Of a stretch of DNA of 64,000 nt, positions 12,606-40,024 are shown piece after piece. The notes beneath the pieces were generated by a model. The model had not been told where the DNA came from, did not search any database, and saw only the letters and a program-made list of their open reading frames with translations. Position 1 is the stretch's first letter. Each line of letters opens with the position of its first letter. The position numbers and the translations under genes are program-made. This DNA is from a virus (Duplodnaviria; Heunggongvirae; Uroviricota; Caudoviricetes), in IMG/VR virus record IMGVR_UViG_3300012943_000028, positions 240,642 through 304,641 of that record; one strand, 5' to 3'.

Positions 12606-12845
12606 TTAGAGCTTCTTCGCCAGAACTGGGAAGATTGAGCGCACTGGCCAAAGGCCGATAAGCAGCAGTGCGAGCCCAACAAGGGCGATGACCATGTACC
12701 ATGGATCGCCATTCAGCTTCAACTCGAGGTAGGCTCGATAGCCGACGAGCAGCGCTGCCATCATGAAGAGAGGAATGGCTGTGTAGAAGACACCGTGAGG
12801 GTGCTTCTTCCAGTTGAACATTGTGCTGAGAGCTTCACGGATCAT
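12606..12845 (-). CDS. small membrane protein (~79 aa)
   Basis: ORF 12606..13007 trimmed to the internal Met (MIREAL...). Two hydrophobic helices. The upstream extension has an abnormal His/Arg-rich composition. Confidence 0.4.
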   Translation of the reverse strand: MIREALSTMFNWKKHPHGVFYTAIPLFMMAALLVGYRAYLELKLNGDPWYMVIALVGLALLLIGLWPVRSIFPVLAKKL

Positions 12846-12853: not shown

Positions 12854-13384
12854 TCACATCTGCTTGGACCACTGACGCACCACGATCTCGTACAGCTCGA
12901 GCAGCTTCGGATCGGAAAGCGTAGTGATGATCTCTGGCTTGATCCTCTTCATTGCGGCCTTGCCCTTCTTTGTGGTCGTGCTGCCGCCCATTTCCTTGTG
13001 GAGCCACTCTTTCACGCTGCTCCAGCGGTGCCCATCAGAGAAGCCGTGTACAGTCATGAAGTAGATGGCACGCTGCTCGATGGCAGAGCGGAACGAGAAA
13101 CCTTCGATGCGCCTCGGTGCCTTCGGCTCCACGTTGAGCTGATTGCAGACGAACTCTACAGCATCGCCGACGGTGCGCATGTTTTCACCGTCATCATCGG
13201 AGATGTTGAAGTCAAAGGCCTCCTCCAGCGCCATCACCAGCTCAACGGTGTCGAGCGAGTCGGTGCCAAGGTCGGCAACGAACTGGGTGTCGAGGGAGAG
13301 GAGGTGAACTTCAGTGTTGAACTCCTCAGCGACGATCTTCTTGATCGTGCTCTCGATCTCCTCGTACGAGTAGTACGTCTTCAC
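12854..13384 (-). CDS. acyl-carrier-protein domain protein (ACP fused to a C-terminal domain of unknown function)
   Basis: LGTDSLDTVELVMALEEAFDF is the canonical ACP phosphopantetheine-attachment motif (DSL). The C-terminal ~95 aa have no recognizable family. Confidence 0.75.
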   Translation of the reverse strand: MKTYYSYEEIESTIKKIVAEEFNTEVHLLSLDTQFVADLGTDSLDTVELVMALEEAFDFNISDDDGENMRTVGDAVEFVCNQLNVEPKAPRRIEGFSFRSAIEQRAIYFMTVHGFSDGHRWSSVKEWLHKEMGGSTTTKKGKAAMKRIKPEIITTLSDPKLLELYEIVVRQWSKQM

Positions 13385-13833
13385 TTCTGCTCCTTCGAGA
13401 GAGCGACCAGCTCCATGTAGAAGTGGAAGTAGCGGGCCATGCGGGCGATGTCCTTGTCGGCGACGCCACGCAGGCGTCGGATGTCAGTATTGTGCCGCAG
13501 ATCGCAGAGCTTCACGCGCACTGAGTCGGGGTTGCTCTTGACCTTCAGCTTGTACTCGTCGTACGTTTCGCCAGGCAGCTTCGTCAGGCACTTGATGCCC
13601 TCGATGACACGGTCTGTCATGCCCGCGTTCTTCAGGTCCTGGTACGTGGTGTCAGTGTCCTCGATGAGGTCGTGGCCGAGGGCGATACACAGCAGCTCCT
13701 CGTCTTCCGAGTTCAGGAGGTTCATCACCGCCAGCGGGTGCAGAATGTAAGGGTGTCCACCCTTGTCAAACTGGCCCGCGTGTTTGTTGGTCGCAATGAC
13801 CAACATTGCATTCAGCATTTCGCCCTTGTTCAT
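13381..13833 (-). CDS. HD-domain phosphohydrolase (RelA/SpoT-type (p)ppGpp-hydrolase-like)
   Basis: H...HPLAV...GHDLIEDT pattern of the SpoT/Mesh1 HD domain. ORF trimmed to the internal Met MNKGEML. Confidence 0.7.
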   Translation of the reverse strand: MNKGEMLNAMLVIATNKHAGQFDKGGHPYILHPLAVMNLLNSEDEELLCIALGHDLIEDTDTTYQDLKNAGMTDRVIEGIKCLTKLPGETYDEYKLKVKSNPDSVRVKLCDLRHNTDIRRLRGVADKDIARMARYFHFYMELVALSKEQK

Positions 13834-14369
13834 GATGCCTTCTTCTGTTCGTCCATGTACGCCCAGCTGGACGCGAGGTAGTCGTGGATGCGGGCCATGA
13901 ACTCCTTGTCGAAGGAGAACATGGTATGGTTGTCGATGTCCCACCAGAAGTCCGGCTTCCACAGCTCACGTTCGGCCTTCTGTTTCTCCCACACCTTCTT
14001 CTGCTGTGGGGTCTTGACGTAGTCAGGCATCGTCTCGTAGCGATCTTCCGGAGCAAACTTGCTCCACTCCTTCAGGCGCACCTTGTCGGCACGGAGATCG
14101 ATGAGCAGCGAGTTGTACTCGACAAACTGCTTGTCGTCGAGGAAGGAGAGGACACGCAGTGAGCGGTCCTGGTTGTCCTTGATGTGGTTGAGGGTGCGCA
14201 GCTTGATCAGCGCATCGCACGCCTGTAGGGCACGCAGCGACTTTGGCAGGGCGCCGAACTCGAACTCGGCGGAGCCCATGTAGTCGAGGTTGACAGCGCT
14301 GCCGATGCGCTCATTGGACTCGGCAAGCGGGCGACGAATCTTCGCACGTTGGATCAGCCACATCTTCAT
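13830..14369 (-). CDS. hypothetical protein
   Basis: 179-aa ORF downstream of promoter copy 3. Confidence 0.5.
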   Translation of the reverse strand: MKMWLIQRAKIRRPLAESNERIGSAVNLDYMGSAEFEFGALPKSLRALQACDALIKLRTLNHIKDNQDRSLRVLSFLDDKQFVEYNSLLIDLRADKVRLKEWSKFAPEDRYETMPDYVKTPQQKKVWEKQKAERELWKPDFWWDIDNHTMFSFDKEFMARIHDYLASSWAYMDEQKKAS

Positions 14370-14402: not shown

Positions 14403-14452
14403 ATTGTAAGCTCCTGCAATCAACCTGTACACAGTCTCATTATGTAAAATGG
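14403..14452 (-). promoter_or_regulatory. conserved phage promoter motif copy 3 (in a divergent intergenic region)
   Basis: Minus strand reads CCATTTTACATAATG-N5-CTGTGTAC-N18-TACAAT, then a GAGGAAG ribosome-binding site and the ATG at 14369. Confidence 0.5.
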
Positions 14453-14510
14453 AACAGCACTACGTAAATACCTGATTAGAGATTTCACCAGCGAGCTTGA
14501 GTGATACGAT

Positions 14511-15095: not shown

Positions 15096-15721
15096 TGAAA
15101 CTTCATGAGGTTGCTGGTGCAAGCAAGCGCAGCGGAACGCTGTACGTGTTTGACATCGATGATACGCTGTTCCGCACTACGGCGCAGGTACGTGTCATCA
15201 AAGATGGTGAGCCACCAAAAACTCTAACCAGCCAGGAATTCAATGACTACAAGCTCAAACCTGGTGAACGCTTCGACTACGGTGAGTTCGTTGACGCAGA
15301 GAAGTTCAACACAGAGAGCAAGCCGATCCCAAAGATGATTCAGACGCTAGTGCGAGTGCACGACAAGGTCAAGCTGAACCTTACGCCTGGCTCAAAGGTG
15401 ATCATCAGCACCGCACGTGGCATCCTTGACGATCAAGACACCTTCGACGACACGTTCAGGTATCACGGCATCGACATCGACAACATTGAGGCCAACCACG
15501 CCGAGCATGGTAAGGGGTCGTCGCCGGCAGAACGCAAGAACTCTGTTGCTCGACGCTACCTCAGCGCACATGATTACGATGCGTGCTACATGTACGACGA
15601 CAGCAAGACCAACCTTACGTACTTTCTACAGCTGAAGCACGAATTTCCTGAGGTAGATTTCAGGGCCTTCATCATTAATGATGAAGGCGAGATGCATCAG
15701 TTTACCGCTGAAGCTCGCTGA
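15095..15721 (+). CDS. HAD-superfamily hydrolase (phosphatase)
   Basis: YVFDIDDTLF matches HAD motif I (DxDxT). Confidence 0.65.
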   Translation: MKLHEVAGASKRSGTLYVFDIDDTLFRTTAQVRVIKDGEPPKTLTSQEFNDYKLKPGERFDYGEFVDAEKFNTESKPIPKMIQTLVRVHDKVKLNLTPGSKVIISTARGILDDQDTFDDTFRYHGIDIDNIEANHAEHGKGSSPAERKNSVARRYLSAHDYDACYMYDDSKTNLTYFLQLKHEFPEVDFRAFIINDEGEMHQFTAEAR

Positions 15722-16505
15722 GCAACGGTTCAACCTTCTGCCAAAACGCATCGGCCACCTGAGAGTGGAACTCTGGGCCACGATGGTGGCCATCTCTTGC
15801 GCACGTTTCCTTGTGGTGTTTTGGAAAATCTACCCACTCTATCTGAGGAAATTTTTCCTTCAACACTTCCATGTTGTCAACGGCCGTTGAAAGCGTCTTT
15901 GCTCCCCACAGCTCACACACGGTGCTCATCAACCGCATGCTTCTGATGGATTGGTTGGTGAAGAAGTACCGATCAGTAAAGACTGGCATGAGTGTCTCGT
16001 TGATCACGGCCGGGTAGTTTGATAGATCATTCGGTGAGAAGTGAAATTCTCTGCTTGCCTTGAATGAGAAGTCTCTCCAGAAGAAGGCAGGAAGCCAGCT
16101 CAGCACAAGCTTTGGGCGCATCTTAAGGTGAGTGTGAGCATAGTAGATTTCAGATGCCACTGTGTCCACAGAAGCGCCAGACACAGATAGGTTCCAGTAC
16201 GGAATCTTCTTACCTGTCGCAGCCCTGATCCTTTCAAGCAGCACGTAAGCCCACACCTTCTCAAGTGGGAGGCCTACACCTTCAGTGTGGCTGCAACCAA
16301 CGAAGATGATTGGCAGCTCAGATGGGTCGGTGAACTCATCACAGCGTAGGCCTTCACTGTTAAAGTTGTAAGTGATATCGCCTGGCTTGAATTGATTTGG
16401 ACCGTAGAAGGTCTCTTCCTTGTAGTTTTCAAGCGTGTCAAGGCTGTGCCATTCCGTGGTGCACGCTTTTTGCTTCGTGAACCAGAACAGCGGATGCACG
16501 TTCAT
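15702..16505 (-). CDS. SGNH/GDSL-like hydrolase paralog 1
   Basis: IIFVGCSHTEGVG resembles SGNH block I with Ser retained. Strong similarity to the partial plus-strand ORF at 63654-64000 (RAATGKKIP(Y/F)WN). Confidence 0.55.
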   Translation of the reverse strand: MNVHPLFWFTKQKACTTEWHSLDTLENYKEETFYGPNQFKPGDITYNFNSEGLRCDEFTDPSELPIIFVGCSHTEGVGLPLEKVWAYVLLERIRAATGKKIPYWNLSVSGASVDTVASEIYYAHTHLKMRPKLVLSWLPAFFWRDFSFKASREFHFSPNDLSNYPAVINETLMPVFTDRYFFTNQSIRSMRLMSTVCELWGAKTLSTAVDNMEVLKEKFPQIEWVDFPKHHKETCARDGHHRGPEFHSQVADAFWQKVEPLLSELQR

Positions 16506-17047
16506 TAGTAGTCTCGTGGATCGCCAGGAACGACAGCATCAAGCTTACGCTTGATTTCCTGCCAGAGGATTGGAGCGTAGCCCTGCGCATCAACGCCAAC
16601 GTCTAGGCGCCTACGTGTTGGGTCGAATGGAATCGTGTTGTGGCAGTGACCATGTAGATTGTACGAGCCACGGTGTGCCTTATGCCACGTAAGAAGTGGG
16701 TAATGGCACATCGCAACATAGGTGCCTTCGATCGTCTCATGCCAGAGGTCTGGGTAGATTTTCTCGAAGAGGTCTTGTAGCGGCTTCTGGTTACGGATCA
16801 GCTTGTCGTGGTTGCCAAGGATCAGGCGCTTCTTGCCATTCAGGCGGTGCATGATCTGCTTTGCCTCATTAACTTGGCAGAAGAACACGTCACCCAGAAT
16901 GTAGATGATGTCGTCGTACCGGACTCGTGCGTTCCAGTTCTCGATCAACCCTTCATTCATCTCCTGAGCGGAGGCATACGGTCGATCGCAGTATTTGATG
17001 ATGTTTTCGTGTCCGAAATGAAGGTCGGACGTAAAGTAGATGTTCAT
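16505..17047 (-). CDS. calcineurin-like metallophosphoesterase
   Basis: MNIYFTSDLHFGH...GDVF...GNHD metallophosphatase motifs. ORF trimmed to the internal Met. Confidence 0.7.
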   Translation of the reverse strand: MNIYFTSDLHFGHENIIKYCDRPYASAQEMNEGLIENWNARVRYDDIIYILGDVFFCQVNEAKQIMHRLNGKKRLILGNHDKLIRNQKPLQDLFEKIYPDLWHETIEGTYVAMCHYPLLTWHKAHRGSYNLHGHCHNTIPFDPTRRRLDVGVDAQGYAPILWQEIKRKLDAVVPGDPRDY

Positions 17048-17057
17048 ACGCAGGTAT

Positions 17058-17834
17058 TTACGAGTCTCTACCGTAGTACCTTGGTGATCCACGTTGTTCT
17101 GGTGATGCTGGTGGCGTGTAGATTTTATGTTCAAGCTCAAAGCATTTTTCAAAGTCTGCAATTGGATCAAGGTGCTGCGTTTCAGGTCTGAGAATAGCGT
17201 ACATGCCAACAGTCGCAACACCTATGTTTATTCCACGCTCCATCAAGAATTTGCCAAGCCCGAGATTTGGATTCTTGAGATGGTCCTTCAGCGACCAAAA
17301 GTATTGAGTTGCGGTGTCCATGATCTGCGCAGGCGCAGCCCAAAATACATCGTCCATGACCATCGCCTCTGGCGGCCGCCACTCACCATTTTCCATGATG
17401 AAAGCGTTTTCGTTCATCGCCTGCTCGACAATGGTGGATAGGAGCTTATATCTTGGGAAGATGATATCAGGCCGCATCTTGACAACAGCATCATACTTCA
17501 CGTTGTTCGATGTCTCGTACTGACGCCTAAACTCTACGCTCTTCATCCAAGAGTAGTAGAGCGCAATCGGTGCGTTCATGCTGCCATGCATGTTTAGAGC
17601 CCTAGCGTTTTCGGCAATGAACACCTTTGGCTTAAGTAGTTCAACGTACCGTGAAATAATTGCAGTAGGCACGACCTCCTCATCTACATCCGACAACGCA
17701 TATCGCCTGTTCGTGTTTGTTGTCCACGTATGAACGAAAAAGTCGATGTCCATATCACCGAAGAACAGCTGCTGGTTTTCTAGCGCCTTCAGGCAGGTAC
17801 GAAGCTGGCCGCTAAAGCAAACTGCGACCTTCAT
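17058..17834 (-). CDS. CxSGQxRT-family protein paralog 1 (unassigned family; possible glycosyltransferase)
   Basis: N-terminal MKVAVCFSGQLRT...FFVHTW; the same architecture as 24848..25642 and 25629..26393. Confidence 0.5.
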   Translation of the reverse strand: MKVAVCFSGQLRTCLKALENQQLFFGDMDIDFFVHTWTTNTNRRYALSDVDEEVVPTAIISRYVELLKPKVFIAENARALNMHGSMNAPIALYYSWMKSVEFRRQYETSNNVKYDAVVKMRPDIIFPRYKLLSTIVEQAMNENAFIMENGEWRPPEAMVMDDVFWAAPAQIMDTATQYFWSLKDHLKNPNLGLGKFLMERGINIGVATVGMYAILRPETQHLDPIADFEKCFELEHKIYTPPASPEQRGSPRYYGRDS

Positions 17835-18841
17835 ACCGTATAGCGATCAAGAAGCTGGAACACGCGCCTCTCTACGTGTTCCTGAAAGTCCTCATGGTCG
17901 TTGATCTTCTCAACGAGGCTTAGGTATTCAGGGTCAGTGAAGTGATAGTGCCCAGCGCAGATCAGCTTGTCGTATGTAGAGAAGGCAGGACCATATTCCC
18001 ACTTCTTCCATTTGCCTGAAGCGGCAACGTGGTCCGTGAAAGCATTCAACCCATCAACAAATCCACAGCGCATTGCTAGATCAACAAGCACCTGAGTCTG
18101 GGCGGCACCGAACTCTGGAGCTACATTGATAGCGTGAACACCAATCGTCTTTCTGTGCTGTACCTCCGCATCACTAATGTAATCAGCGTTGTGCTCCTTT
18201 AGCTTCACCCCATATTTCTCAGCGATGCTGACGAGCTGCTTGACAACCTCTGGGCTAAATGAACCGACCTGCTGGTGGCTCTTTACGAGTGATCCAGTCT
18301 GACCAACAACGTAGCGTGGCATTAGAACGCCTGGATACAGAGATGTGATGAAGCGTACGTCGCTTTCAAACTTTTCAACGCTGACAGCCGTTCCAATGTT
18401 CTCTTCGGTGCCAAACTCATACTCAAGCCACTTTGAACTGAGCATTGAAAGGGAGAACAGCTCTTCGGCGGCTGCATATGGGTCGGGTGCAGCAGATGTA
18501 TCAATGTGAATCAGGTCCATCGCATACATGTCGGTGCTGAGGCTTTGTTTAGTGCGCTCCATCGCCTCCTTGTATGACATGCCCTTTTCTATGTCGTTAA
18601 GGAATGGGCCACAGTGATCACGACACAGCATCACGTGTCCGTCTGGGTCTCTCTCACGAACGTATTGGGCGAAAGTTCTGGTATTGAAGGCACCAACATA
18701 ACCACCACCAAGCTCTGCGCACTCTATCTGGTTGCGTGATGCGATCAGCATGAGCTGGATATTTTTGTGGCGCGCATATTTGATCACAGCGTCGATGATC
18801 TCAACGCTCATTGGTCCTACGCCAACTTCTAGCTTTTTCAT
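17831..18841 (-). CDS. GatZ/KbaZ-family protein (tagatose-bisphosphate aldolase accessory / tagatose-6-phosphate kinase family)
   Basis: ASRNQIECAELGGGYVGAFNTRTFAQYV and CRDHCGPF parallel the GatZ [24 protein letters not shown] and GGDHLGPN regions. Confidence 0.7.
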   Translation of the reverse strand: MKKLEVGVGPMSVEIIDAVIKYARHKNIQLMLIASRNQIECAELGGGYVGAFNTRTFAQYVRERDPDGHVMLCRDHCGPFLNDIEKGMSYKEAMERTKQSLSTDMYAMDLIHIDTSAAPDPYAAAEELFSLSMLSSKWLEYEFGTEENIGTAVSVEKFESDVRFITSLYPGVLMPRYVVGQTGSLVKSHQQVGSFSPEVVKQLVSIAEKYGVKLKEHNADYISDAEVQHRKTIGVHAINVAPEFGAAQTQVLVDLAMRCGFVDGLNAFTDHVAASGKWKKWEYGPAFSTYDKLICAGHYHFTDPEYLSLVEKINDHEDFQEHVERRVFQLLDRYTV

Positions 18842-19299
18842 TCGAGAATCCCCTTGAGGTAGAGGCATGCATCAAGCACTGCACCTTGTCCAGCCTTCGA
18901 CGTAGTAACGAAGTCACTTGCCCAACGTGCCTCCTGTCTTGCAGAGACCGGGCAGATACCAAGAGCAACTGCCTCAAGAACAGGTGCATCGTAGTAGCCA
19001 TCGCCCATGTAGGCAACGCTGTCGAGGCCCAGTCCAGCAACAAAGCCGAGCCTGTCCTGTTCAGATACAAGCGACAGCTTGAAACCGAGGTCGTCCTCAA
19101 TGCGGCGCTTCGTGATCTCAAAACCACGGTGGTCGGCTGTGATGAACTGGATGTTGATCATGTCCTTGATCATCTTTAGACCGTCAGCATCGTGCGGGCC
19201 AAATACCTTGGCCACCTTACCTTCAGCCGTGTAGACGAACGTGCCATCAGTCATGACACCGTCGACGTCAAGGACGAAGTGCTTGAGCTTGTCTTTCAT
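18838..19299 (-). CDS. HAD phosphatase of the KdsC/NeuAc-9-P phosphatase subfamily
   Basis: FVLDVDGVMTDG motif and ~150 aa size match KdsC-type sugar-acid phosphate phosphatases. Confidence 0.7.
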   Translation of the reverse strand: MKDKLKHFVLDVDGVMTDGTFVYTAEGKVAKVFGPHDADGLKMIKDMINIQFITADHRGFEITKRRIEDDLGFKLSLVSEQDRLGFVAGLGLDSVAYMGDGYYDAPVLEAVALGICPVSARQEARWASDFVTTSKAGQGAVLDACLYLKGILE

Positions 19300-20092
19300 T
19301 GAAGGCCTCTGTCATTGCATTTACCGGTGCTGGTGTGCCGGTGTAAAGTCCAAATTGTTCCATGGCACCGTACAGCGCCATGATTGAGCCGTTGAAAGCA
19401 GGTATCCCAAGCTTTCTTGCAGTAATCACCGTAGGGGAATCATTCACTCCGAGATCGAGAAGCTTGTGCGTTCTCAGCAGCTCGATACCAAGCAGCTCAC
19501 CATTCATACCAACTGGGGTGCAGTTGATCATGGTGCCGTAGATGTCTTCTGCCCAAAGTTCATCGTGAGTTTCCCTGTTCCACTTTTCCTCAATGAAGGA
19601 ATCTTTGGATGGGTCTTTGATTCTACCTCGCACCCACACAGAAACATCGCTGTAAGCGCTAAGGCACTCGAGCACCGCCCTAGCCGCACCACCAGAACCG
19701 AAGACGTGTATCTTGTCGCCAAGCTTGACGTCAGCTACATCGAGCAGTTTTGAAAATCCAATCAGGTCAGTGTTGTAGCCGTAGAGCTTGCCATTTCGAT
19801 TGACGACTGTATTTACCGCCCCAATTTTGACAGCTGAATCATCAATCCAATCGAGGTAGTCTAGGACCTCAACCTTGAATGGCATTGAGATGCTGGCACC
19901 ACGAATGTCGAAGGTCTTCATCTGCAGCATGGCGCGCTTGATGTTGTCTTCTGAGCAGGCAAGGTACTTGAAGTCTAGACCACGTGCCTTGTAGCCGGCA
20001 CTATGGACCGTCATTCCTAGATTTCCAGGGTTCGAGCTCAGTGAAATACAGAGCTCAGATTTCCCAGCCATTTTAACTGCTTCAAGCAAGTT
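19268..20092 (-). CDS. shikimate/quinate dehydrogenase-like oxidoreductase (AroE fold)
   Basis: ISMPFKVEV...GAVNTVV...GYNTDLIGF parallels the AroE motifs (NVTvPfK, avNT, GyNTDg.G); Rossmann GSGGAARA. Confidence 0.6.
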   Translation of the reverse strand, partial: NLLEAVKMAGKSELCISLSSNPGNLGMTVHSAGYKARGLDFKYLACSEDNIKRAMLQMKTFDIRGASISMPFKVEVLDYLDWIDDSAVKIGAVNTVVNRNGKLYGYNTDLIGFSKLLDVADVKLGDKIHVFGSGGAARAVLECLSAYSDVSVWVRGRIKDPSKDSFIEEKWNRETHDELWAEDIYGTMINCTPVGMNGELLGIELLRTHKLLDLGVNDSPTVITARKLGIPAFNGSIMALYGAMEQFGLYTGTPAPVNAMTEAFNERQAQALRP

Positions 20093-21596
20093 CATTGAGT
20101 CTCTCCAGTGCCAAGCTGAAAAGCAGCTTGTCAAATGGGGCAGCGTGCAGTGGCGCCATGTTTAGGAAGATGATGGTAGTAATCTGATCAATGAGTGGGC
20201 TAGGGAAACGCTGTCTAAGGCTCGCGGCCAGCTCATCATGATGGCGGCTGTGGTAAAAGTTGAACCATACGCTGTCACCGTTCTCATCGAACATGAAGCG
20301 GTTCTGCTTGACTGTTGAGTAGTCAAGTATGATTCCACCTAGAAGCTTTGCGGCGTCATAGTACAGGTCTCCAACGAGTAGCTCACCAGCAAAGTCCTGT
20401 CGCCAGTCGAGCAGCGTAAATGAAGGGCCCTGCGTATCCGGGAATGAGCACACAATGTTGTCGAACTGTAGATCACCATGGATGAAGGTCGAGCGCTGTT
20501 CGAGGTCGCTGTTGCAGATGCTCTTCCAATCTATCAGCTGAAGCGCGTTGTCAATGTCAACCTTCATTCGGTTTCCATTGATGAACTTTGGGTTGAAGTT
20601 TGGGTATTTCTCCCTGAACATCGCTAGGCGCTTCATCGTCTTCGTGTGATAGAAGTCGGTGCAGTGGGAGGCAGCTAACTGCCGTCCGAGGTTGTGCCAT
20701 ACGCGAAAGTCTAGGAACGCTAGCAGCTCATCAAAGATGTGAGCGTCAATAATTGGGTAGAGCGTCTGACCAGAAACGAACTTGTAAGTGTAGAAGCGTT
20801 CCTTATGCTTCACGATCTTTGGGAAGATGCCTGGAGAGTATGCGGCTCTACGCACACGATCTTCTGCGATCTCGTGGTTCTTGAACCACTTAATGACGTT
20901 GTCACCAACTATCCACAAGAACTCATCTGTCTTTGAGAAGTCGTATGGAGAGTTCTGAAGGTAAAAGCGCTGGTACTTTTCAAACGTGCCGAGGTCTACC
21001 CACTTGAGCGGGAACCCATGAACGTCAAGCCCTGACCATCCAGATGAGAGCTCTACATCACCAAGGTTGGCCCAAAACTGGTCCGTGTCTTTGATGTAGA
21101 AGGCACCATTGACGGCGAGACCTGAATCACAGTAGCGCTTGTCAACGATCTTCGTAATCCGGCCGTCGTACATCTCAACGTTGCAGTATGCTGGTGAGTC
21201 TGCTACGTCGACGTTGGATACACCAACGTAGTTCTTATCCGTTGGGATATCGTTAAGCCCTTCGTAGTAGGCATCGCAGGCGATCAGATAGAATGGTCCG
21301 CTGATCACACGATGACAGCGACGAAGGGAATGAGCTGGTCCAGAGTTTGGACCATCGTAGTTGTTGACCAACACGAATGAGAACTTCGTGTTCGGATGTG
21401 CGAGCTCTAGATACGTTCTAACGTCTTGACTGAGGAACCCAAGCGCAACCACGAACTGCGTTGAGCTGTCAAACTGCTCAATGATGTGAGAGATGATTGC
21501 CTTGTCGTTGACAGGAAGCAGTGTCTTGTTGATGACGCCAGCATACTTGCCCATGCGGCTGCCAATACCAGCGGTAAGAAGAACGACGGTCTTCAT
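20082..21596 (-). CDS. bifunctional sugar-phosphate nucleotidyltransferase / APH-family kinase
   Basis: N-terminal VLLTAGIGSRMG nucleotidyltransferase signature. C-terminal IHGDLQFDNIV is the HGDxxxxN motif of aminoglycoside/choline/sugar kinases. The layout resembles LicC-LicA or HddC-HddA type sugar-activation pairs. Confidence 0.75.
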   Translation of the reverse strand: MKTVVLLTAGIGSRMGKYAGVINKTLLPVNDKAIISHIIEQFDSSTQFVVALGFLSQDVRTYLELAHPNTKFSFVLVNNYDGPNSGPAHSLRRCHRVISGPFYLIACDAYYEGLNDIPTDKNYVGVSNVDVADSPAYCNVEMYDGRITKIVDKRYCDSGLAVNGAFYIKDTDQFWANLGDVELSSGWSGLDVHGFPLKWVDLGTFEKYQRFYLQNSPYDFSKTDEFLWIVGDNVIKWFKNHEIAEDRVRRAAYSPGIFPKIVKHKERFYTYKFVSGQTLYPIIDAHIFDELLAFLDFRVWHNLGRQLAASHCTDFYHTKTMKRLAMFREKYPNFNPKFINGNRMKVDIDNALQLIDWKSICNSDLEQRSTFIHGDLQFDNIVCSFPDTQGPSFTLLDWRQDFAGELLVGDLYYDAAKLLGGIILDYSTVKQNRFMFDENGDSVWFNFYHSRHHDELAASLRQRFPSPLIDQITTIIFLNMAPLHAAPFDKLLFSLALERLNELA

Positions 21597-22288
21597 TTGT
21601 GCTCGCTTTCAATCCTACCATTTCCACGGTTAGCATCGTCCTGAACACGAATGACATCATCAAGGTGCGGTGTCGACACCTCAAAGAGGTGGAGGTCAGT
21701 GTTAGCACGAAGACGGTGAATCGTGTTTGGCGTAACGTGCAGACAGACAGGACCATTGAAGCTGCTTTCACCGAGGTCTGCCTTGGTTACAGCATCGTTC
21801 TGTGCTTCACGGTTTGCCTTGAACACGAGCGTAACGTTGCCGCTCTCAATAAGGTTTGTCTCTTCCTTGAAGTTGTGGTACTGAAGGCTCGTCTGATTTC
21901 CAGCCTTGATGAAGATCTTCTTTGCACAGTACCTGTCATTGTCTTTAGTCAACCACAGCTCATAGCCCCAAGGCTTCACAACTTTGTAGTGAACACCAGC
22001 TCTGGTTATGGTGAGGTAGTTGAGCGGCGCATCGTGTGATGCTACCTGAGCAACGTATATTTGGCCGTTACCAATGAGAAGCACCTCACGGTTCTTGACG
22101 TCGATCGTATCACCAGCCTCTACCTTCAATTTGTCAGAGGCTATTGTAAATGAGCCGCTGATGACGTAGATCGTGCGCTCTACTTCACCAGCAAAATACA
22201 CCTCATCCTTCACGTTTGACGAGTAGAAGAGATACGCGCCGTTCGCATACACGTGATCGGCCGTTGTTGGTTGGAGTATCTTGATCAT
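21593..22288 (-). CDS. cupin-domain protein (phosphosugar isomerase-like)
   Basis: VVKPWGYELWL and a second cupin-like beta-barrel core (bicupin). Confidence 0.6.
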   Translation of the reverse strand: MIKILQPTTADHVYANGAYLFYSSNVKDEVYFAGEVERTIYVISGSFTIASDKLKVEAGDTIDVKNREVLLIGNGQIYVAQVASHDAPLNYLTITRAGVHYKVVKPWGYELWLTKDNDRYCAKKIFIKAGNQTSLQYHNFKEETNLIESGNVTLVFKANREAQNDAVTKADLGESSFNGPVCLHVTPNTIHRLRANTDLHLFEVSTPHLDDVIRVQDDANRGNGRIESEHK

Positions 22289-22369
22289 TTGTAGATGTAC
22301 GGGTCTCGTTTACGAATCTCTTTCATCTTCTTCCAGTATCGAATCTTCGAGCGGATTCGATAGATGATG

Positions 22370-23164
22370 TCACGGAAGAACTGCATGATCGTCTCCTAAA
22401 ATACCACGTGCCTTGAGTTCCTGCACCATGTGATCCGCCCATGCAACATGTGTGCTTGGTGTAGGGTGAATGCACTTGGTCAGTTCCAGCTTGTTGTCAT
22501 ACACCCACTTCATGCATGACTCGTTGAGGTTCATGATGCTAGTGTCGATGAGCTCTGGCAGCATGTGAGCGAGAGCCGGCTTGTATTCACCTTTCTTGTA
22601 CACAGCAAGCGATTCCAAGTTTGGAAGCGCCGAGAAGAACAGGAACTTTACACCCTGCGTTCTCAGGAAGGACTTGAGCATCACAACCTGCTTGAGAAAG
22701 GTGTCCATCGCCGAATAGAACTCGTACACTTCAGCCACAAACATCTGGTGATATTTATCGAGCTGGCGGGCCTTCTCTTCAGTCATTGAATAGCCAGAGC
22801 CGCTGTAGAAGCCGCTGTACATAGAAAATGGCTGTGCTGCGTTGAATCTGAACCAACGATCTGATGGGTCGGCGGCCTTGCGCTCGAAACCCTCGACGTA
22901 AATTTCACCACGCTCAATCGTTGACCAGCCAATGATGACCAGGAGGTTCTTCCTTTCCTCTGGCGGAAGGTTGAGCACGTAGTCGATCGTCATTCTGTAC
23001 ATGCGCGCATTGCTGCCGCCGCCCGCTGCCTGGTTGACATGTGTGATGTTTAGCTTACGAGCTAGAACGGTTGGCCAGCAATGGTCGCGAACCTTACCAC
23101 CCCATGCGGCTGTGCCATCACCGTTCGCCCAGCTGCATCCGTTTGTGTAGAGCTTGTTGATCAT
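22370..23164 (-). CDS. SGNH/GDSL-like hydrolase paralog 2
   Basis: LYTNGCSWANGDG N-terminal block I-like motif; similar to 23949..24848. Confidence 0.5.
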   Translation of the reverse strand: MINKLYTNGCSWANGDGTAAWGGKVRDHCWPTVLARKLNITHVNQAAGGGSNARMYRMTIDYVLNLPPEERKNLLVIIGWSTIERGEIYVEGFERKAADPSDRWFRFNAAQPFSMYSGFYSGSGYSMTEEKARQLDKYHQMFVAEVYEFYSAMDTFLKQVVMLKSFLRTQGVKFLFFSALPNLESLAVYKKGEYKPALAHMLPELIDTSIMNLNESCMKWVYDNKLELTKCIHPTPSTHVAWADHMVQELKARGILGDDHAVLP

Positions 23165-23952
23165 TTGACTAGCTTCCTGTAGAGCTCTTCAGCAACAATC
23201 GCGTGCGCTTCTTCAGATGCGTGCATGCTGCCGATCTTGTCTGGATATTTCTGTGAGAGGCCGAACCAGTTCATTGAGTGAATCTCATCAGCCGGCACGA
23301 GGTCAAGCAGCAGTGGATCATTAGAAAGAATGACGCACTTGATGCCACGCTTCTTTGCGTAGAGGTATGACTTGAGTAGCACACCAACGTCGTAGTTGCG
23401 CTTGATGTCACCGTTTAGAATTTCGACGTAGTACTGACACATGCGCTTGAGCTTCTCAATCGGCTCAGTGTGTAGGCGCTTATAGTAGTGAATGGCGCCC
23501 TGCACATTGGAGCTCTTTTCTCTCTCACGCACCTTGATGTAGTCATCGATACCACCTACCTGTTCCGTGAGGAGACAAGGATCATACTCGCTCTTGTTCA
23601 GGAAGTGATGGTCGAATGGGTTCTTGTTTGCCTCTGGATTGTGGTGTGGTGGGTAGAGATGGTAGTTGATGTGCCGTGCCTCAAGTGGGAATCGCTGTGT
23701 CTTACCCTCCTCGATCCACTCAATACGGTCATAGCTCGTGGTGCCGATGACGATGAGGTCGGGTTTTGGGTCCATCCTTGCAGCGTACTCTACTTGAAGG
23801 TGGACGGCAAAGTTGCTTGCGCTTCCTCTTGCGAGCGTTACGAGCTCTGCTCCGAGCTTCTGCGCAAGCAGCACACCGTACGGCTGTGTCTGAAGGTCCA
23901 GCACGCCGATGCCACAGTTGAAGCTGTCACCGCATACGACTATCTTCTTCAC
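23161..23952 (-). CDS. SGNH/GDSL-like hydrolase paralog 3
   Basis: IVVCGDSFNCGIGV contains the GDS(F) block I motif. Confidence 0.55.
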   Translation of the reverse strand: MKKIVVCGDSFNCGIGVLDLQTQPYGVLLAQKLGAELVTLARGSASNFAVHLQVEYAARMDPKPDLIVIGTTSYDRIEWIEEGKTQRFPLEARHINYHLYPPHHNPEANKNPFDHHFLNKSEYDPCLLTEQVGGIDDYIKVREREKSSNVQGAIHYYKRLHTEPIEKLKRMCQYYVEILNGDIKRNYDVGVLLKSYLYAKKRGIKCVILSNDPLLLDLVPADEIHSMNWFGLSQKYPDKIGSMHASEEAHAIVAEELYRKLVK

Positions 23953-24848
23953 TTGAACTTCCTCTCATAGAGATGGTTTGCCCAAGCCTCGTGGCTCTCA
24001 GGGCTTGGGTGCATGTTGATCATTCGAATTGGCTTAGGCACGTTCTCATCGATGAACGACTTGAAGGACCTGAAGTCCAGCTTGTCCAAGAACACATCAT
24101 CTGGAATGCTCTTCCACTGTGCACGAATCCTGTTGATGTCTTGACGGTTGTTCCATGCGCCATCAAGCCAACCATCGAATGGTTCTGCGTGCCAATTGTT
24201 GATCACCAACGAGAGATCACATGGTCTCCAATCATTGAGCGGTGACAGCTTGCCTTTCGGCATGTTTGGAACATAGAAGGAGTTGAAGAAGACGTGCTGG
24301 ATGGCGTTGCTCTTGAGGTAGGTGTGCAGCTGGAAATTCTGCTCAACGAAGCGAGTGATGGCCTCACGCTCATTCCACAGGTGCTGGATGTAGAACTTTG
24401 AGAAGCGCTTCATGACGTCAAGCTTGTAGTACTCATCTTGGATCATGGCTGGCCAGATGGTGTACTGATGAAGCTTGTCGTCAAACCCTTCTATTAGAAT
24501 GTTCTTTCGCTCAAGGCTCGACCAACCAACCACAACAACAAGCTCTGCCGGATCACCACCCTCTGACAGGTACTTCATCACCCAACCCATCGTGCTGTTG
24601 AAGATGGTGTCATTGCTCCTTGCGGGCCAGCTAATGTTGACTGACTTGTAACCGAGCTTGTTCGCAAGGTGCGTGGACCAAATCCTTGGCACTCGGTAGT
24701 AATCATTGTGCGGCTGACAGTCAAGCATGCCCGCCTTGAAGTTCTGAGTCATGCCTTCGCCCTTCTCTCCAGCAGGCACGAGCATGTGCGGGCCAGCTAT
24801 CTCGCTGCCAAATGCCCAGCTATCTCCATTTGTCAAGAGCGTCTTCAT
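23949..24848 (-). CDS. SGNH/GDSL-like hydrolase paralog 4
   Basis: LLTNGDSWAFGSE GDS motif; TAATG coupling to the upstream gene. Confidence 0.6.
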   Translation of the reverse strand: MKTLLTNGDSWAFGSEIAGPHMLVPAGEKGEGMTQNFKAGMLDCQPHNDYYRVPRIWSTHLANKLGYKSVNISWPARSNDTIFNSTMGWVMKYLSEGGDPAELVVVVGWSSLERKNILIEGFDDKLHQYTIWPAMIQDEYYKLDVMKRFSKFYIQHLWNEREAITRFVEQNFQLHTYLKSNAIQHVFFNSFYVPNMPKGKLSPLNDWRPCDLSLVINNWHAEPFDGWLDGAWNNRQDINRIRAQWKSIPDDVFLDKLDFRSFKSFIDENVPKPIRMINMHPSPESHEAWANHLYERKFK

Positions 24849-25642
24849 TAGAAATTCCTATATGCGTCTCTAAGGGCTTCATGGTCTAACGGCCAGTTGA
24901 GGTGCTCTGTACCCAGTCGAACTACAAAAGGTCCGATGTTGCGTGGTATGTCAACCATCTTGATGCACTTGTCGTTGACCCACTTGTACAGCATTACACC
25001 TACACCATAACGATCTAGCGTTGGGTTTCTTGTGCTGTTGTAGTTGTGTAAAGCATGGAAACGACGGTTGCTGTAGTAGTGCCAAAACCCATCAATCATC
25101 GTCATCACACGACTGCTACCATAGTAGAAGATGTCATCGATGCATGGCTGTCGATATTCAAACGCAAACGAATTGCGTGAACAGTAAACGGTGTCTGGCT
25201 CGATGACGTCAGGTATCGTGAGATCAACGTATGCGTGAGGTGAACACGCAAAGTCAAAGCGCACATGGTAGACCATGTCGAATGACCTACCAGTTTCGAT
25301 CTCGTACTGTGTCTTGAGGTGCATTGACTTGGCGCTGCTTTTGAGCATCGCTGACCACGGAAGAACCTTTCCACCATTGATGAACTGGTGTATCTGCTCA
25401 TCTATTATGAGGCGCTCAAAATTGAATGCAGCCTGCAGCTCTTCACGAAGTGTTTCTACACAGAGCTTTTCAGTAGTTCCAGGATGATCACTGCTAGCCC
25501 GCCAGGTATTTTCGTCCCACGTATGGCCAAAGAACTTCACATCAGCCTTAAGACTGTTGAAGAAGCGCTTGATAGCCGGTAGAGCCGTCTTCCACGTACG
25601 GCTCTGTCCGCTCATGCACACTGCGATGCTATACTGTTTCAT
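24848..25642 (-). CDS. CxSGQxRT-family protein paralog 2
   Basis: Internal start MKQYSIAVCMSGQSRT...FFGHTW aligns with the other two paralogs. The ORF-track N-terminal extension overlaps the upstream paralog. Confidence 0.5.
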   Translation of the reverse strand: MKQYSIAVCMSGQSRTWKTALPAIKRFFNSLKADVKFFGHTWDENTWRASSDHPGTTEKLCVETLREELQAAFNFERLIIDEQIHQFINGGKVLPWSAMLKSSAKSMHLKTQYEIETGRSFDMVYHVRFDFACSPHAYVDLTIPDVIEPDTVYCSRNSFAFEYRQPCIDDIFYYGSSRVMTMIDGFWHYYSNRRFHALHNYNSTRNPTLDRYGVGVMLYKWVNDKCIKMVDIPRNIGPFVVRLGTEHLNWPLDHEALRDAYRNF

Positions 25643-26393
25643 ACTGCTCCAGCTTTCCAGCTCGTGCAAGATGCTCAGCATCACGCATGATCTTGAAGTC
25701 AATGTGTGGTAGCGGAACATTGTCTACGCCGATTGAAGCGCAGTAGTAGAAGAGCGCAAGCTCTGGTGGAAAGATTGGCTCACTAGGCATCACAGACAGC
25801 GCGTCGATATACCTAAAGCTGTCATAGAACATGGCGATGTGGTCATACGTCAGGCTGTCCGACATGAAGAAGATGTCACCAATGCGCATCACGCCATTCG
25901 TTGCATCGATGGAATTGTGAACAGAATGGATAGTCGATGGCAGCATAGTGTCTGCACGCACTGGTGATGTGAACCCACCAGAAAAGAAAAGGTCGGACCG
26001 CAGTCTGACAACAACATCATACTCGAAGTCGTTTTCCATCTCGTGCTCGCGCTTCAGCGTGGCTGCACGCCACAGGCTGTAGAACTGCTCATGAGCAAAC
26101 CATGAGACGACGTTTGTTGGGCCAGTCTGCGAGACGTCCTTCTTGCTCTCGAACAAGAACTTCTTCGGCTTCAAGGTGCTGACGATGCGAGCCTTCTCAT
26201 CTTCAGACAGCGGAATTTCCTTAGGCCTACCGTCTATGAACTCAGCCCTTAGCTGAGGATGACTGTTGTAATCCCACAGGTGGAAGAACAGGTCAACCTC
26301 GCCCATGTTTCCTAGGGCTTGATACCATGAGGCATAGCACTTTTCCCAAGTGCGGGCTTGACCACTGAGGCAGAAGGCGATTCTTGAAGTCAT
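25629..26393 (-). CDS. CxSGQxRT-family protein paralog 3
   Basis: MTSRIAFCLSGQART...LFFHLWD; shared YD.VV..R.D..F central block. Confidence 0.5.
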   Translation of the reverse strand: MTSRIAFCLSGQARTWEKCYASWYQALGNMGEVDLFFHLWDYNSHPQLRAEFIDGRPKEIPLSEDEKARIVSTLKPKKFLFESKKDVSQTGPTNVVSWFAHEQFYSLWRAATLKREHEMENDFEYDVVVRLRSDLFFSGGFTSPVRADTMLPSTIHSVHNSIDATNGVMRIGDIFFMSDSLTYDHIAMFYDSFRYIDALSVMPSEPIFPPELALFYYCASIGVDNVPLPHIDFKIMRDAEHLARAGKLEQYETV

Positions 26394-35238: not shown

Positions 35239-35534
35239 GCTTGATCGGTTGAAAGAGCGGAATTTAGAAATTCATCAAGGTCTGCCTGTGCAGGCAGCCA
35301 CGACTTGTCTGTTTTTATTGAGCGTGCCCATTGAACACGCATGAACATATTGTAACACACTCTGAAAATCTGTTCGTCCTTGATGCTGCGTGGCATCAAG
35401 GCTAGCACCTCTTCAGGGTGAATTGGCAGCCAGCTGTTGTCCTTTCGAAACTTGCGCAGGACCTTCAAATTTTCAAGGGTCTCTGCGCAGGCATCGATCT
35501 CAGCTTGCGACAGCCTGCTGTTCCTCTTCTCCAT
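35235..35534 (-). CDS. hypothetical protein (~99 aa)
   Basis: ORF trimmed to the internal Met MEKRNSRLSQ; the upstream extension has an abnormal composition. Confidence 0.4.
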   Translation of the reverse strand: MEKRNSRLSQAEIDACAETLENLKVLRKFRKDNSWLPIHPEEVLALMPRSIKDEQIFRVCYNMFMRVQWARSIKTDKSWLPAQADLDEFLNSALSTDQA

Positions 35535-39857: not shown

Positions 39858-40024
39858 CAAACTCTCTCCTTTTCAACGATGTAGCCAGCTCCCATGCAAG
39901 AACCGCAGTGCATGTATGGATCAACGCATGGGATCATGCGCGTACCGCTTCCGTTGCAGGAGTTGCACTGTCTCCTGCTTTCACGGTACTGAACTCGCTT
40001 CTTGGCCTTCTTACGCTTTGCCAT
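39857..40024 (-). CDS. small zinc-ribbon protein (55 aa; not in ORF track because <60 aa)
   Basis: MAKRKKAKKRVQYRESRRQCNSCNGSGTRMIPCVDPYMHCGSCMGAGYIVEKERV has four CxxC-type pairs. TGATG coupling to the downstream gene. Fills an otherwise empty gap. Confidence 0.4.
   Translation of the reverse strand: MAKRKKAKKRVQYRESRRQCNSCNGSGTRMIPCVDPYMHCGSCMGAGYIVEKERV

What the first reader, a model, noticed from the sequence alone, without database searches (positions are those of the whole stretch)
12854..13384. Phage-encoded acyl carrier protein fusion, with a separately encoded PPAT (CoaD)
The first ~80 residues of the 12854..13384 product form a textbook ACP, with the DSL Ser in LGTDSLDTVELVMALEEAFDF. 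They are fused to a ~95-aa basic C-terminal domain that I cannot assign. At 40011..40514 the phage encodes phosphopantetheine adenylyltransferase (TFDPITIGHADI). Together they imply that the phage invests in 4'-phosphopantetheine/CoA supply and a carrier-bound acyl or aminoacyl intermediate. No phosphopantetheinyl transferase, ketosynthase or adenylation gene is visible in the window. The carrier might feed the SGNH-type acyl-transfer enzymes of the glycan island.
Basis: partly seen in the sequence, partly recalled or inferred. Interest (0 to 1): 0.6.

Follow-up and report, generated by a model that had tools for sequence, protein, structure and literature searches.

The report
Phage acyl carrier protein fused to orphan domain
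A 358-kb T4-like jumbo phage encodes a bacterial-type acyl carrier protein joined to a small helical domain from a previously undescribed phage-only protein family, and its context suggests a host-interaction protein more than the carrier of a phage biosynthetic pathway, but no function has been shown.

Summary
ORF 12854..13384 (minus strand, 176 aa) begins with an AcpP-type acyl carrier domain (aa 8-82, TIGR00517 87 bits against a cutoff of 70, DSL Ser43). ORF 40011..40514 (minus strand) is CoaD (TIGR01510, 179 bits).

The fusion occurs in four lineages. Both halves are under purifying selection (dN/dS 0.13-0.24).

The window holds no PPTase, ketosynthase, adenylation or acyltransferase gene. 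CoaD lies 27 kb away among nucleotide and sugar genes, and it also occurs in phages that gave no ACP match. In three lineages the gene is translationally coupled to an Aph1-like alarmone hydrolase. Three isolated phages carry ACP domains with unrelated orphan extensions.

Best reading (about 0.4): a host-loaded ACP handle tethered to a binding module. This is a new variant of a known kind, of moderate interest.

The parts
12854..13384 (-). ACP-X fusion gene (176 aa; GTG start; stop codon at 12854..12856)
   Evidence: The ORF is continuous. A Shine-Dalgarno AAGGAG lies 5 nt upstream, and the start overlaps the upstream stop as GTGA. The same architecture is kept in P0002 (82% identity), P0003 (63%) and P0146 (about 31%).
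13139..13363 (-). AcpP-type acyl carrier domain, aa 8-82; the phosphopantetheine-attachment Ser43 codon is at 13256..13258
   Evidence: PF00550 matches at 6.9e-11. TIGR00517 scores 87.3 bits, above its cutoff of 70.45. AlphaFold2 places helices at 7-21, 43-57, 63-68 and 72-82 with pLDDT about 80-90. DSLD is invariant in all four fusion lineages. dN/dS is 0.13-0.24.
13094..13138 (-). Linker, aa 83-97 (LNVEPKAPRRIEGFS)
   Evidence: This stretch lies between the ACP HMM envelope and the X-profile envelope. Its pLDDT is low, and aa 85-92 vary among the relatives.
12857..13093 (-). X domain, aa 98-176: a five-helix bundle from a new phage-only family. Motif: RW ... G.DP.TK.GKK ... LSD..L..L[FY]E.VVR[RQ]...QM at the C-terminus
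13381..13833 (-). Upstream gene, translationally coupled: a small HD alarmone hydrolase resembling the Aph1 (p)ppApp hydrolase and the RelA/SpoT hydrolase domain
   Evidence: phrog_990 matches at 4.4e-55. The best PDB match is 7smg, annotated as a (p)ppApp hydrolase, at E 2.4e-25; RelA/SpoT and Mesh1 hydrolases follow. The 4-nt overlap with ACP-X is kept in L001 and L003. The gene is absent from the P0146 locus L017.
13830..14369 (-). First gene of the same-strand block: a 179-aa protein with no family
   Evidence: It is conserved at 71-73% identity in L001 and L003. It has no significant Pfam match and no PHROG match. Two weak sigma-70-like sites lie upstream at 14403..14468. The scan found 2 sites against 0.9 expected, which is not significant.
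12606..12845 (-). Downstream 79-aa protein with hydrophobic stretches; it appears to have two transmembrane segments (my reading of the sequence, no predictor run)
   Evidence: It was called as a gene. It is 67% identical in L001 and absent from L003 and L017.
40011..40514 (-). CoaD (phosphopantetheine adenylyltransferase). It is not shown to be linked to ACP-X
   Evidence: TIGR01510 scores 179.2 bits, above its cutoff of 103.3. PF01467 matches at 7e-25. The TIGH motif is present. A 60%-identical copy lies about 29 kb from ACP-X in the P0002-like UViG.

Best explanation
The gene encodes a two-domain accessory protein of a T4-like jumbo phage.

Shown:
- The N-terminal domain is an AcpP-type carrier domain.
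- Its attachment serine and its partner-recognition helix II (DSLDTVELVMALEEAF) are essentially those of housekeeping bacterial AcpP.
- A linker of about 15 residues joins it to X. X is an 80-residue five-helix bundle from a phage-only family.
- In other T4-like phages, X is made as a free 80-96 aa protein.
- X lies among small ORFs, nucleic-acid enzymes and homing-endonuclease genes.
- Both domains are under purifying selection.

Inferred:
- X has no enzyme-like features. It also exists without any ACP nearby. It is therefore probably the binding or effector module.
- The ACP is probably an added handle. The host AcpS would load it, because no phage PPTase is seen in the window. The handle could then dock on the host's ACP client proteins: fatty-acid and lipid enzymes, and SpoT.

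Two mechanistic versions follow.
- Version (a): free X binds host AcpP, and this phage clade has fused X to its own ligand. This is Rosetta-stone logic.
- Version (b): the ACP steers X onto ACP-client enzymes.

In either version the protein would act as an adaptor or decoy in host lipid or stringent-response physiology. It would not be the shuttle of a phage-encoded biosynthetic pathway.
For: - The ACP is at equivalog level, with invariant DSLD. Helix II of ACP is the surface used by both FAS enzymes and SpoT (PMC3340395).
- X is a separate family, detected without circularity. It stands alone in L011, L012 and L014, where neither its neighbours nor the rest of the fetched contig encode an ACP.
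- Pfam finds no ACP-using enzyme in 64 kb, nor in the flanks of the three other fusion lineages.
- ACP-X lies in a plastic segment between conserved genes. Against L017 it is 31% identical while the neighbouring gp30.3 is 77%. This pattern is typical of host-interaction genes.
- Isolated phages BCSR5, 10AMN and MED4-213 also carry ACP domains inside 155-187 aa proteins. Their extensions are unrelated orphans, and in BCSR5 and 10AMN the genes sit among small hypothetical ORFs.
- The gene is translationally coupled to an alarmone hydrolase in three lineages.
Against: - No interaction, modification or phenotype has been measured.
- Strict conservation of the attachment serine is equally what a true carrier predicts.
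- Only about 294 kb of the genome outside the window could hold partner enzymes or a PPTase, and it was not scanned.
- X has no detectable relation to any known ACP-binding protein. The full-length AlphaFold2 model had too few sequences to show whether the two domains dock.
- Rosetta-stone inference from four related fusions is weak.
- The neighbouring conserved genes (a phosphoesterase, a 267-aa protein and a 258-aa protein) are uncharacterised and could be ACP clients.
Confidence: 0.4

Rival explanations
1. Dedicated carrier. Holo-ACP-X carries an acyl or aminoacyl group. Phage enzymes in the adjacent conserved block or glycan island transfer that group onto a sugar, the envelope or the virion, and phage CoaD boosts the CoA needed for phosphopantetheinylation.
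For: - The DSL serine is invariant and the ACP domain is under purifying selection.
- A genuine CoaD is present and is co-retained in the P0002-like relative.
- A same-strand block just upstream holds sugar-nucleotide genes, DUF6071 paralogues, one weak GDSL hit and a phosphoesterase.
- SGNH enzymes can act on carrier-bound thioesters; TesA and DltD are examples (from my own knowledge).
Against: - No loading enzyme (adenylation, AasS-like or malonyl-acyltransferase), KS, MBOAT or LpxA-like acyltransferase appears in the window or in the flanks of the other lineages.
- The island is separated by two opposite-strand genes, and its distal content varies between lineages.
- In L017 the 267-aa candidate is replaced by a methyltransferase, yet ACP-X persists.
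- CoaD sits among nucleotide genes and occurs in phages that gave no ACP match.
- The domain scores as housekeeping AcpP, not as DltC: NF003464 scores 16 bits against a cutoff of 68.
- The model gives no role to X.
Confidence: 0.22
2. Stringent-response override; this is a specific form of the best explanation. ACP-X works with the co-translated Aph1/SpoT-like hydrolase. The hydrolase destroys (p)ppGpp or (p)ppApp. The ACP domain occupies the ACP-binding TGS region of host SpoT, or recruits the hydrolase. This would stop the host raising alarmones when phage infection perturbs lipid synthesis.
For: - The GTGA overlap and the HD-ACP-X order are conserved in three lineages.
- The HD protein's best PDB match is the (p)ppApp hydrolase Aph1 (7smg, E 2.4e-25), followed by RelA/SpoT hydrolase domains (PMC10083569).
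- E. coli ACP binds SpoT through helix II (PMC3340395), and helix II is nearly unchanged here.
- The closest cultured relatives infect Xanthomonas, Ralstonia and Stenotrophomonas. The ACP-SpoT link was described for bacteria of this kind that have both RelA and SpoT (from my own knowledge).
- A Flavobacterium jumbophage island also pairs ACPs with a metal-dependent phosphohydrolase (PMC13573597).
Against: - The divergent fusion lineage L017 has no HD gene upstream.
- Free-standing X genes are not next to HD genes.
- phrog_990 hydrolases are common in phages, and none was linked to an ACP here.
- The hydrolase's substrate was not tested.
- The role of X remains unexplained.
Confidence: 0.12
3. 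Virion or assembly factor. ACP-X is a structural or chaperone-like protein tied to the adjacent tail-fibre gene.
For: - The gene block converges on a tail-fibre gene with an S74 chaperone domain.
- An ACP was detected by mass spectrometry in virions of Erwinia Eneladusvirus jumbo phages (PMC7760394).
Against: - The fibre gene is on the opposite strand.
- L017 has ACP-X but no fibre gene nearby.
- Free-standing X genes sit among replication-type and small unannotated genes, with no annotated structural gene on the fetched contigs.
Confidence: 0.06
4. Inactive relic or annotation artefact. The ACP part would be a decaying captured host gene, or the fusion would be a missed stop codon or frameshift.
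For: None beyond the rarity of the architecture.
Against: - The same uninterrupted ORF is found in four independently assembled lineages at 31-82% identity.
- dN/dS is 0.13-0.24 in both halves, with dS of 0.75-1.4.
- The start site is strong.
- TIGR00517 scores above its curated cutoff.
Confidence: 0.03

Closest known systems
Bacterial type II FAS acyl carrier protein AcpP (TIGR00517 / PF00550)
   Same: It has the four-helix fold, the DSL serine and a helix II that is almost identical (DSLDTVELVMALEE-F). Identity to bacterial AcpPs is about 50%, and the score is above the equivalog cutoff.
   Different: It is not a free 8-9 kDa protein. It is fused to an 80-aa domain, encoded by a phage, and has no fab or pls genes or any ACP-dependent enzyme nearby.
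Phage ACP auxiliary genes (phrog_5934): Brevundimonas phage Bajun (78 aa), Burkholderia phage BCSR5 QRE00220 (162 aa), Vibrio phage 10AMN WNO47214 (187 aa), cyanophage MED4-213 AGH26188 (155 aa)
   Same: All have an AcpP-like domain with the DSL serine and come from large phages. Those in Bajun, BCSR5 and 10AMN sit among small hypothetical ORFs without FAS or PKS genes. Three of the four carry extra unassigned segments.
   Different: Their extensions are unrelated to X: the X HMM scores them at about 0 bits. The extensions also sit at different ends of the protein. None has a characterised function either.
Free-standing X-family proteins of uncultured T4-like phages (P0121-P0154; loci L011, L012, L014)
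   Same: They are homologous over the whole 80-residue domain, including the RW motif, the G.DP.TK.GKK loop and the conserved C-terminal QM.
   Different: They have no ACP domain and no ACP gene on the 2.5-18 kb fetched around them. The family was not found in any of 50,697 deposited phage records by tblastn with five members.
Phage-encoded CoaD (phrog_29208), for example in Microcystis phage MaAM05, Campylobacter phage A11a, Myxococcus phage Mx1, Brevundimonas jumbo phages and the Lak megaphages
   Same: These are full-length pantetheine-phosphate adenylyltransferase homologues at 33-48% identity.
   Different: Most of those phages gave no ACP match at E <= 1e-5. The pairing seen here is therefore not a general module.
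ACP bound to small helical partner proteins (mitochondrial LYR-motif proteins) and the ACP-SpoT interaction in proteobacteria; these are functional analogies only
   Same: In both cases a small non-enzymatic helical protein or regulatory domain uses holo- or acyl-ACP as a ligand through helix II (PMC3340395 for SpoT; LYRM from my own knowledge).

Membership tests
AcpP-type acyl carrier protein (TIGR00517 / PF00550) | HMM score above the curated cutoff | tested here: met
   TIGR00517 scores 87.3 bits against a cutoff of 70.45. PF00550 scores 42.7 bits against 20.8.
AcpP-type acyl carrier protein (TIGR00517 / PF00550) | Asp-Ser-Leu motif with the attachment Ser at the N-terminus of helix II; four-helix bundle | tested here: met
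   D42-S43-L44 is invariant in the four fusion lineages. AlphaFold2 places helices at 7-21, 43-57, 63-68 and 72-82 with pLDDT 80-90.
AcpP-type acyl carrier protein (TIGR00517 / PF00550) | Free-standing protein of about 75-100 aa | tested here: not met
   The protein is 176 aa with a second, independent domain.
AcpP-type acyl carrier protein (TIGR00517 / PF00550) | Encoded with, or serving, cognate ACP-dependent enzymes (fab/pls/lpx genes, or a dedicated ligase, KS or acyltransferase) | tested here: not met
   No such Pfam family appears in the 64-kb window or in the flanks of the relatives. The rest of the genome was not scanned.
AcpP-type acyl carrier protein (TIGR00517 / PF00550) | 4'-phosphopantetheinylation of the Ser in vivo | not testable with these tools
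   This needs mass spectrometry or an AcpS/Sfp assay.
D-alanyl / peptidyl / aryl carrier proteins (DltC-type and NRPS-type) | A better match to a specialised carrier model, and an adjacent adenylation enzyme | tested here: not met
   DltC NF003464 scores 16 bits against a cutoff of 68, and AsbD 17 bits against 100. No AMP-binding or MBOAT gene is present.
CoaD, pantetheine-phosphate adenylyltransferase (40011..40514) | TIGR01510 score above cutoff and the (T/H)xGH nucleotidyltransferase motif | tested here: met
   It scores 179.2 bits against a cutoff of 103.3. The sequence GTFDPITIGH is present. NadD and NMNAT models score far below their cutoffs.
X family (new; defined here) | End-to-end match to a profile of the free-standing members, with RW, G.DP.TK.GKK, LSD..L..L[FY]E.VVR and a C-terminal QM | tested here: met
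T4 AsiA anti-sigma factor (considered because of its size, helical content and T4-type neighbourhood) | Profile or fold similarity to AsiA (PDB 1JR5) | tested here: not met
LYR-motif ACP-binding proteins (Complex1_LYR) | Pfam Complex1_LYR match, or fold match to ISD11/LYRM structures | tested here: not met
Aph1 / small alarmone hydrolase (upstream gene 13381..13833) | Sequence homology to the solved (p)ppApp hydrolase and to RelA/SpoT HD hydrolase domains over the full length | tested here: met
   7smg matches at E 2.4e-25 over aa 3-140, followed by RelA/SpoT and Mesh1. phrog_990 matches at 4.4e-55. Pfam HD_4 scores only 22.9 bits, below its cutoff of 27.2. Substrate specificity is not testable here.

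The most novel reading that the evidence does not exclude
X would be a phage-specific ACP-binding module. Free X proteins of T4-like phages would capture the host's AcpP, the hub of lipid synthesis and a regulator of SpoT. This jumbo-phage clade would have made the partnership permanent by fusing X to a captured AcpP copy. That would define a new class of phage host-takeover proteins aimed at the acyl carrier protein. The orphan extensions on other phage ACPs would be independent solutions to the same task.
Probability: 0.18. Interest if true: 0.7.

Novelty: new variant of a known kind. Interest (0 to 1): 0.42.

Why it matters
Phage ACP genes are usually listed as auxiliary metabolic genes. 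The papers I could find give them no mechanism. Here the ACP is welded to a conserved phage-only domain that also exists on its own, and three other phage ACPs also carry orphan extensions. Together these suggest phages use ACP as a protein-interaction handle rather than as a metabolic shuttle. If X or the fusion binds host AcpP clients or SpoT, it would reveal a new route by which phages control membrane synthesis or alarmone signalling. It would also provide small proteins that target an essential bacterial hub. If the protein instead proves to be a true carrier, it would point to an unknown acylation of a phage or host glycan.

Tried and rejected
**X domain: searches that found nothing**
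- Pfam, PHROGs and PDB sequence searches, with single sequences and with profiles, found nothing usable. The eL20 match at E 0.054 I judged to be chance.
- Foldseek against BFVD gave nothing below E 0.37.
- The afdb50 library was unavailable.

**Specific identities tested and rejected**
- T4 AsiA: hhalign probability 0.5%.
- LYR-motif proteins: no hit.
- HD neighbour as an AcpH-type ACP phosphodiesterase: Pfam lists only HD_4 and HD. The best PDB matches are alarmone hydrolases.
- Genes immediately upstream of free-standing X as cryptic ACPs: they have no Pfam match and their sequences do not look ACP-like. An ACP HMM finds none on those contigs.

**Search for further copies**
- tblastn of five X members against 50,697 phage records gave no real match.
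- X is absent from the topoisomerase regions of Xanthomonas phages X1 and XacN1.
- Alignment A5 was too diverse for a pattern scan.
- P0146 gave nothing in IMG/VR.
- The viral and metagenome scans with A2 each returned only the one known P0002-like contig.

**Other dead ends**
- One fusion event or two: the ACP domain is too short and too saturated to resolve this. Synteny favours a single origin.
- The full-length AlphaFold2 model, built from 5 sequences, left X below pLDDT 50, so it gives no information on domain docking.
- One contig look-up failed on the V-start version of the protein. Two others returned only short Logan contigs.
- No Y RNA was found near the Ro60 gene.
Full report
**1. 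What is there**

The window is part of a 358,285-bp contig, ENA ERZ27256383 k141_1506902. The contig belongs to a T4-like jumbo phage with 54.6% G+C. It carries gp30.3, both topoisomerase II subunits and a tail fibre with an S74 chaperone. Its topoisomerase large subunit is 55% identical to Xanthomonas phages X1 and BUDD. It is 46-47% identical to XacN1, Xoo-sp13 and Ralstonia RsoM2USA.

The flagged ORF 12854..13384 lies on the minus strand and encodes 176 aa. Its GTG start is preceded by AAGGAG at a 5-nt spacing. The start overlaps the stop of the upstream gene as GTGA.

Residues 8-82 are an AcpP-type carrier domain. The evidence:
- PF00550 matches at E 6.9e-11.
- TIGR00517 scores 87.3 bits against a curated cutoff of 70.45.
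- phrog_5934 "acyl carrier protein" matches at 5.6e-17.
- AlphaFold2 gives the four helices pLDDT of about 80-90.

The quoted string is present, and the attachment serine is Ser43 (codon 13256..13258). Helix II reads DSLDTVELVMALEEAF, almost the same as in E. coli AcpP.

ORF 40011..40514 (minus strand) is a genuine CoaD. It scores 179.2 bits on TIGR01510 against a cutoff of 103.3, and NadD and NMNAT models fall far below their cutoffs. The motif GTFDPITIGHADI is present.

**2. The C-terminal domain is a member of a new phage-only family**

The last 92 residues match nothing in Pfam even at E <= 10. Full-length homologues are very rare among 5.8 billion clusters:
- the protein itself;
- P0002, 82% identical, on a 198-kb contig from the same sample;
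- P0003, 63% identical.

I searched a profile of the three C-terminal halves against 1.84 billion representative proteins. It found about twenty free-standing proteins of 80-96 aa, three longer members (117-138 aa) and one more ACP fusion, P0146 (182 aa; PF00550 E 2e-13). Six long proteins with multiple or no clean matched stretches I set aside as spurious.

The free proteins begin where the fused domain begins. They share these features:
- an N-terminal helix, MRxLIxxRI;
- an invariant or near-invariant RW pair;
- a G.DP.TK.GKK loop;
- LSD..L..L[FY]E.VVR[RQ];
- a conserved C-terminal QM.

To avoid circularity I built an HMM from the 27 free-standing proteins alone. It matches the window protein from profile position 1 to 84 (aa 98-176), at 67.8 bits and E 7e-14 even with Z set to 1.8e9. 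It also matches P0146 at E 4e-7.

With this 31-sequence alignment, AlphaFold2 gives a confident five-helix bundle (pLDDT 87.8, pTM 0.75).

The family, called X here, has no relative in any reference I could search:
- no PHROG, Pfam or PDB sequence relative;
- no BFVD match;
- no tblastn match for five members in 50,697 deposited phage records.

A suspected relation to T4 AsiA was tested and rejected: hhalign gave a probability of 0.5%.

**3. Is the fusion real and maintained?**

Yes. The uninterrupted two-domain ORF is found in four independently assembled lineages. Nei-Gojobori dN/dS against P0002 and P0003 is 0.13-0.24 for the ACP half and 0.17 for X, with dS of 0.75-1.4. DSLD is invariant.

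The locus is syntenic in all four lineages. It lies between a conserved pair of opposite-strand genes (194 and about 208 aa) and gp30.3 and topoisomerase II. This favours one ancestral fusion. The ACP domain is too short and too saturated to prove it.

The segment is plastic. In L017 the 179-aa and HD genes are replaced by other small ORFs. There ACP-X is only 31% identical while the neighbouring gp30.3 is 77% identical. ACP-X therefore evolves faster than its neighbours.

**4. Context**

In the window and in the P0002 and P0003 lineages, the gene order on one strand is: a 179-aa unknown, an HD hydrolase, ACP-X and (in two of the three lineages) a 79-aa hydrophobic protein. This block converges on the tail-fibre gene.

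The HD protein matches phrog_990 at 4.4e-55. Its best solved relative is the (p)ppApp hydrolase Aph1, PDB 7smg, at E 2.4e-25. RelA/SpoT and Mesh1 hydrolase domains follow (PMC10083569).

Upstream, beyond two opposite-strand genes, lies a block with these contents:
- a 267-aa protein with no family;
- a phosphoesterase (phrog_547);
- a member of phrog_13607;
- sugar-nucleotide genes and three DUF6071 paralogues.

One ORF in that region gives a weak Lipase_GDSL hit at E 0.0015. The distal content of this block differs between lineages.

Free-standing X genes lie among small ORFs, nucleic-acid enzymes and homing-endonuclease genes. L011 places X next to RNA ligase, HNH and topoisomerase II. L014 places it downstream of rIIB. 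L012 has no annotated neighbours. None has an ACP next door or elsewhere on the fetched contig.

**5. Partner enzymes and CoaD**

Pfam hits, precomputed or run here, cover the called genes and ORFs of the window. None is to ACPS, ketoacyl-synt, AMP-binding, Acyl_transf_1, condensation or MBOAT. The same holds for the flanks of the other fusion lineages.

CoaD sits 27 kb away. Its neighbours are a DinG/XPD-like helicase, DUF4406, a Tmk-like kinase, UDP-galactopyranose mutase, guanylate kinase and a MazG-like gene.

CoaD homologues occur in several bona fide phages that gave no ACP match: Campylobacter A11a, the Lak megaphages, Mx1 and MaAM05. The Brevundimonas jumbo phages also carry CoaD. The phages with ACPs are not among the listed CoaD hits. 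The P0002-like UViG keeps both genes about 29 kb apart, as expected for a shared backbone.

So the CoaD-ACP pairing is real in this clade, but it is not evidence of a functional module.

**6. Other phage ACPs**

Few functional statements exist in the literature I could search. ACP is listed as a rare auxiliary gene. It has been seen in virions of Erwinia jumbo phages (PMC7760394). It has also been noted in a Flavobacterium jumbophage island alongside a metal-dependent phosphohydrolase (PMC13573597).

Looking at the deposited genomes, three of four isolated-phage ACPs are also larger proteins with unassigned extensions:
- BCSR5: 162 aa, ACP at residues 94-153.
- Vibrio phage 10AMN: 187 aa, ACP at residues 9-72.
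- MED4-213: 155 aa, ACP at residues 41-93.

In BCSR5 and 10AMN the genes sit among small hypothetical ORFs. None of the extensions is related to X. An ACP domain carrying an orphan extra segment is therefore a recurring phage architecture.

**7. Interpretation**

Shown:
- The protein has an AcpP-grade carrier domain with an intact attachment site and recognition helix.
- That domain is tethered to an independently occurring, non-enzyme-like helical module.
- Both parts are under selection.
- The gene sits in a plastic accessory segment, coupled to an alarmone hydrolase in three lineages.
- No cognate ACP enzymology is within reach.

Inferred: the protein is more likely a host-interaction adaptor or decoy than the shuttle of a phage pathway (confidence about 0.4). 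Under this reading the host AcpS would load the ACP part. The ACP part would dock on host ACP clients through helix II, the surface used by both FAS enzymes and SpoT (PMC3340395). X would be either an ACP-binding module or an effector delivered to ACP clients.

Rival explanations:
Serine conservation fits it equally well. About 294 kb of the genome is unscanned. The conserved neighbours are uncharacterised.
- A specific stringent-response version involving the HD hydrolase is attractive but not general (about 0.12). L017 lacks the HD gene.
- A virion or assembly role (0.06) has little support.
- The relic or artefact idea (0.03) is effectively excluded by the selection analysis.

**8. Novelty and score**

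Phage ACP and phage CoaD are known as rare auxiliary genes. Three things are new:
- the fusion partner is assigned to a previously undescribed phage-only family;
- the fusion is shown to be conserved and under selection;
- phage ACPs are shown to carry orphan extensions repeatedly.

I rate this as a new variant of a known kind, with moderate interest (0.42). It opens a testable hypothesis but establishes no mechanism.

Noticed in passing
window 13381..13833 (-): A small HD hydrolase whose closest solved relative is the (p)ppApp hydrolase Aph1 (7smg, E 2.4e-25). It also matches phrog_990. It is translationally coupled to ACP-X through a GTGA overlap. It is a candidate phage alarmone hydrolase.
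   Followed up: partly
window 54627..56243 (-): A Ro60/TROVE plus vWA protein (PF05731, PF25045) encoded by the phage. No Y RNA or other partner RNA was found nearby by Rfam, either at gathering thresholds or at E <= 1.
   Followed up: partly
window 15702..26393 (-): A variable sugar-modification island. It holds three DUF6071 paralogues, an NTP_transf_3/APH fusion (504 aa), a Shikimate_dh_N-like protein, a MannoseP_isomer-like protein, a phosphoesterase (phrog_547) and one weak GDSL hit. Its distal content differs in the P0002 and P0003 relatives, which carry DHQ_synthase and adh_short instead.
   Followed up: partly
window 35500..36534 (-): UDP-galactopyranose mutase (Glf; PF03275, E 6e-52). 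It sits in a block with guanylate kinase, a MazG-like gene, a Tmk-like kinase, DUF4406, CoaD and a DinG/XPD-like helicase.
   Followed up: no
window 61285..63632 (-): A set of translation and cofactor genes: peptide deformylase (about 62955..63452), an IscA-like Fe-S protein (61285..61638), a short 35-aa ORF with a weak PCRF (release-factor) hit, and three tRNAs for Val, Thr and Arg at 62890..63632.
   Followed up: no
L021:4722-5210, L022:4992-5555, L024:3908-4375: The isolated phages Burkholderia BCSR5, Vibrio 10AMN and cyanophage MED4-213 encode ACP domains inside 155-187 aa proteins. Their extra segments have no Pfam family and are unrelated to X. Two of the three are annotated only as hypothetical proteins.
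   Followed up: partly
L011:12198-13538 and 14248-15084: The uncultured T4-like phage that carries a free-standing X gene also encodes a PARP-like protein (WGR, PARP_reg and PARP domains), a sigma-70-type factor, and a topoisomerase II large subunit that appears split by an inserted ORF.
   Followed up: no
window 31337..32563 (-): A phage-encoded SPFH/Band_7 protein (408 aa; PF01145), as also annotated in Xanthomonas phage X1.
   Followed up: no
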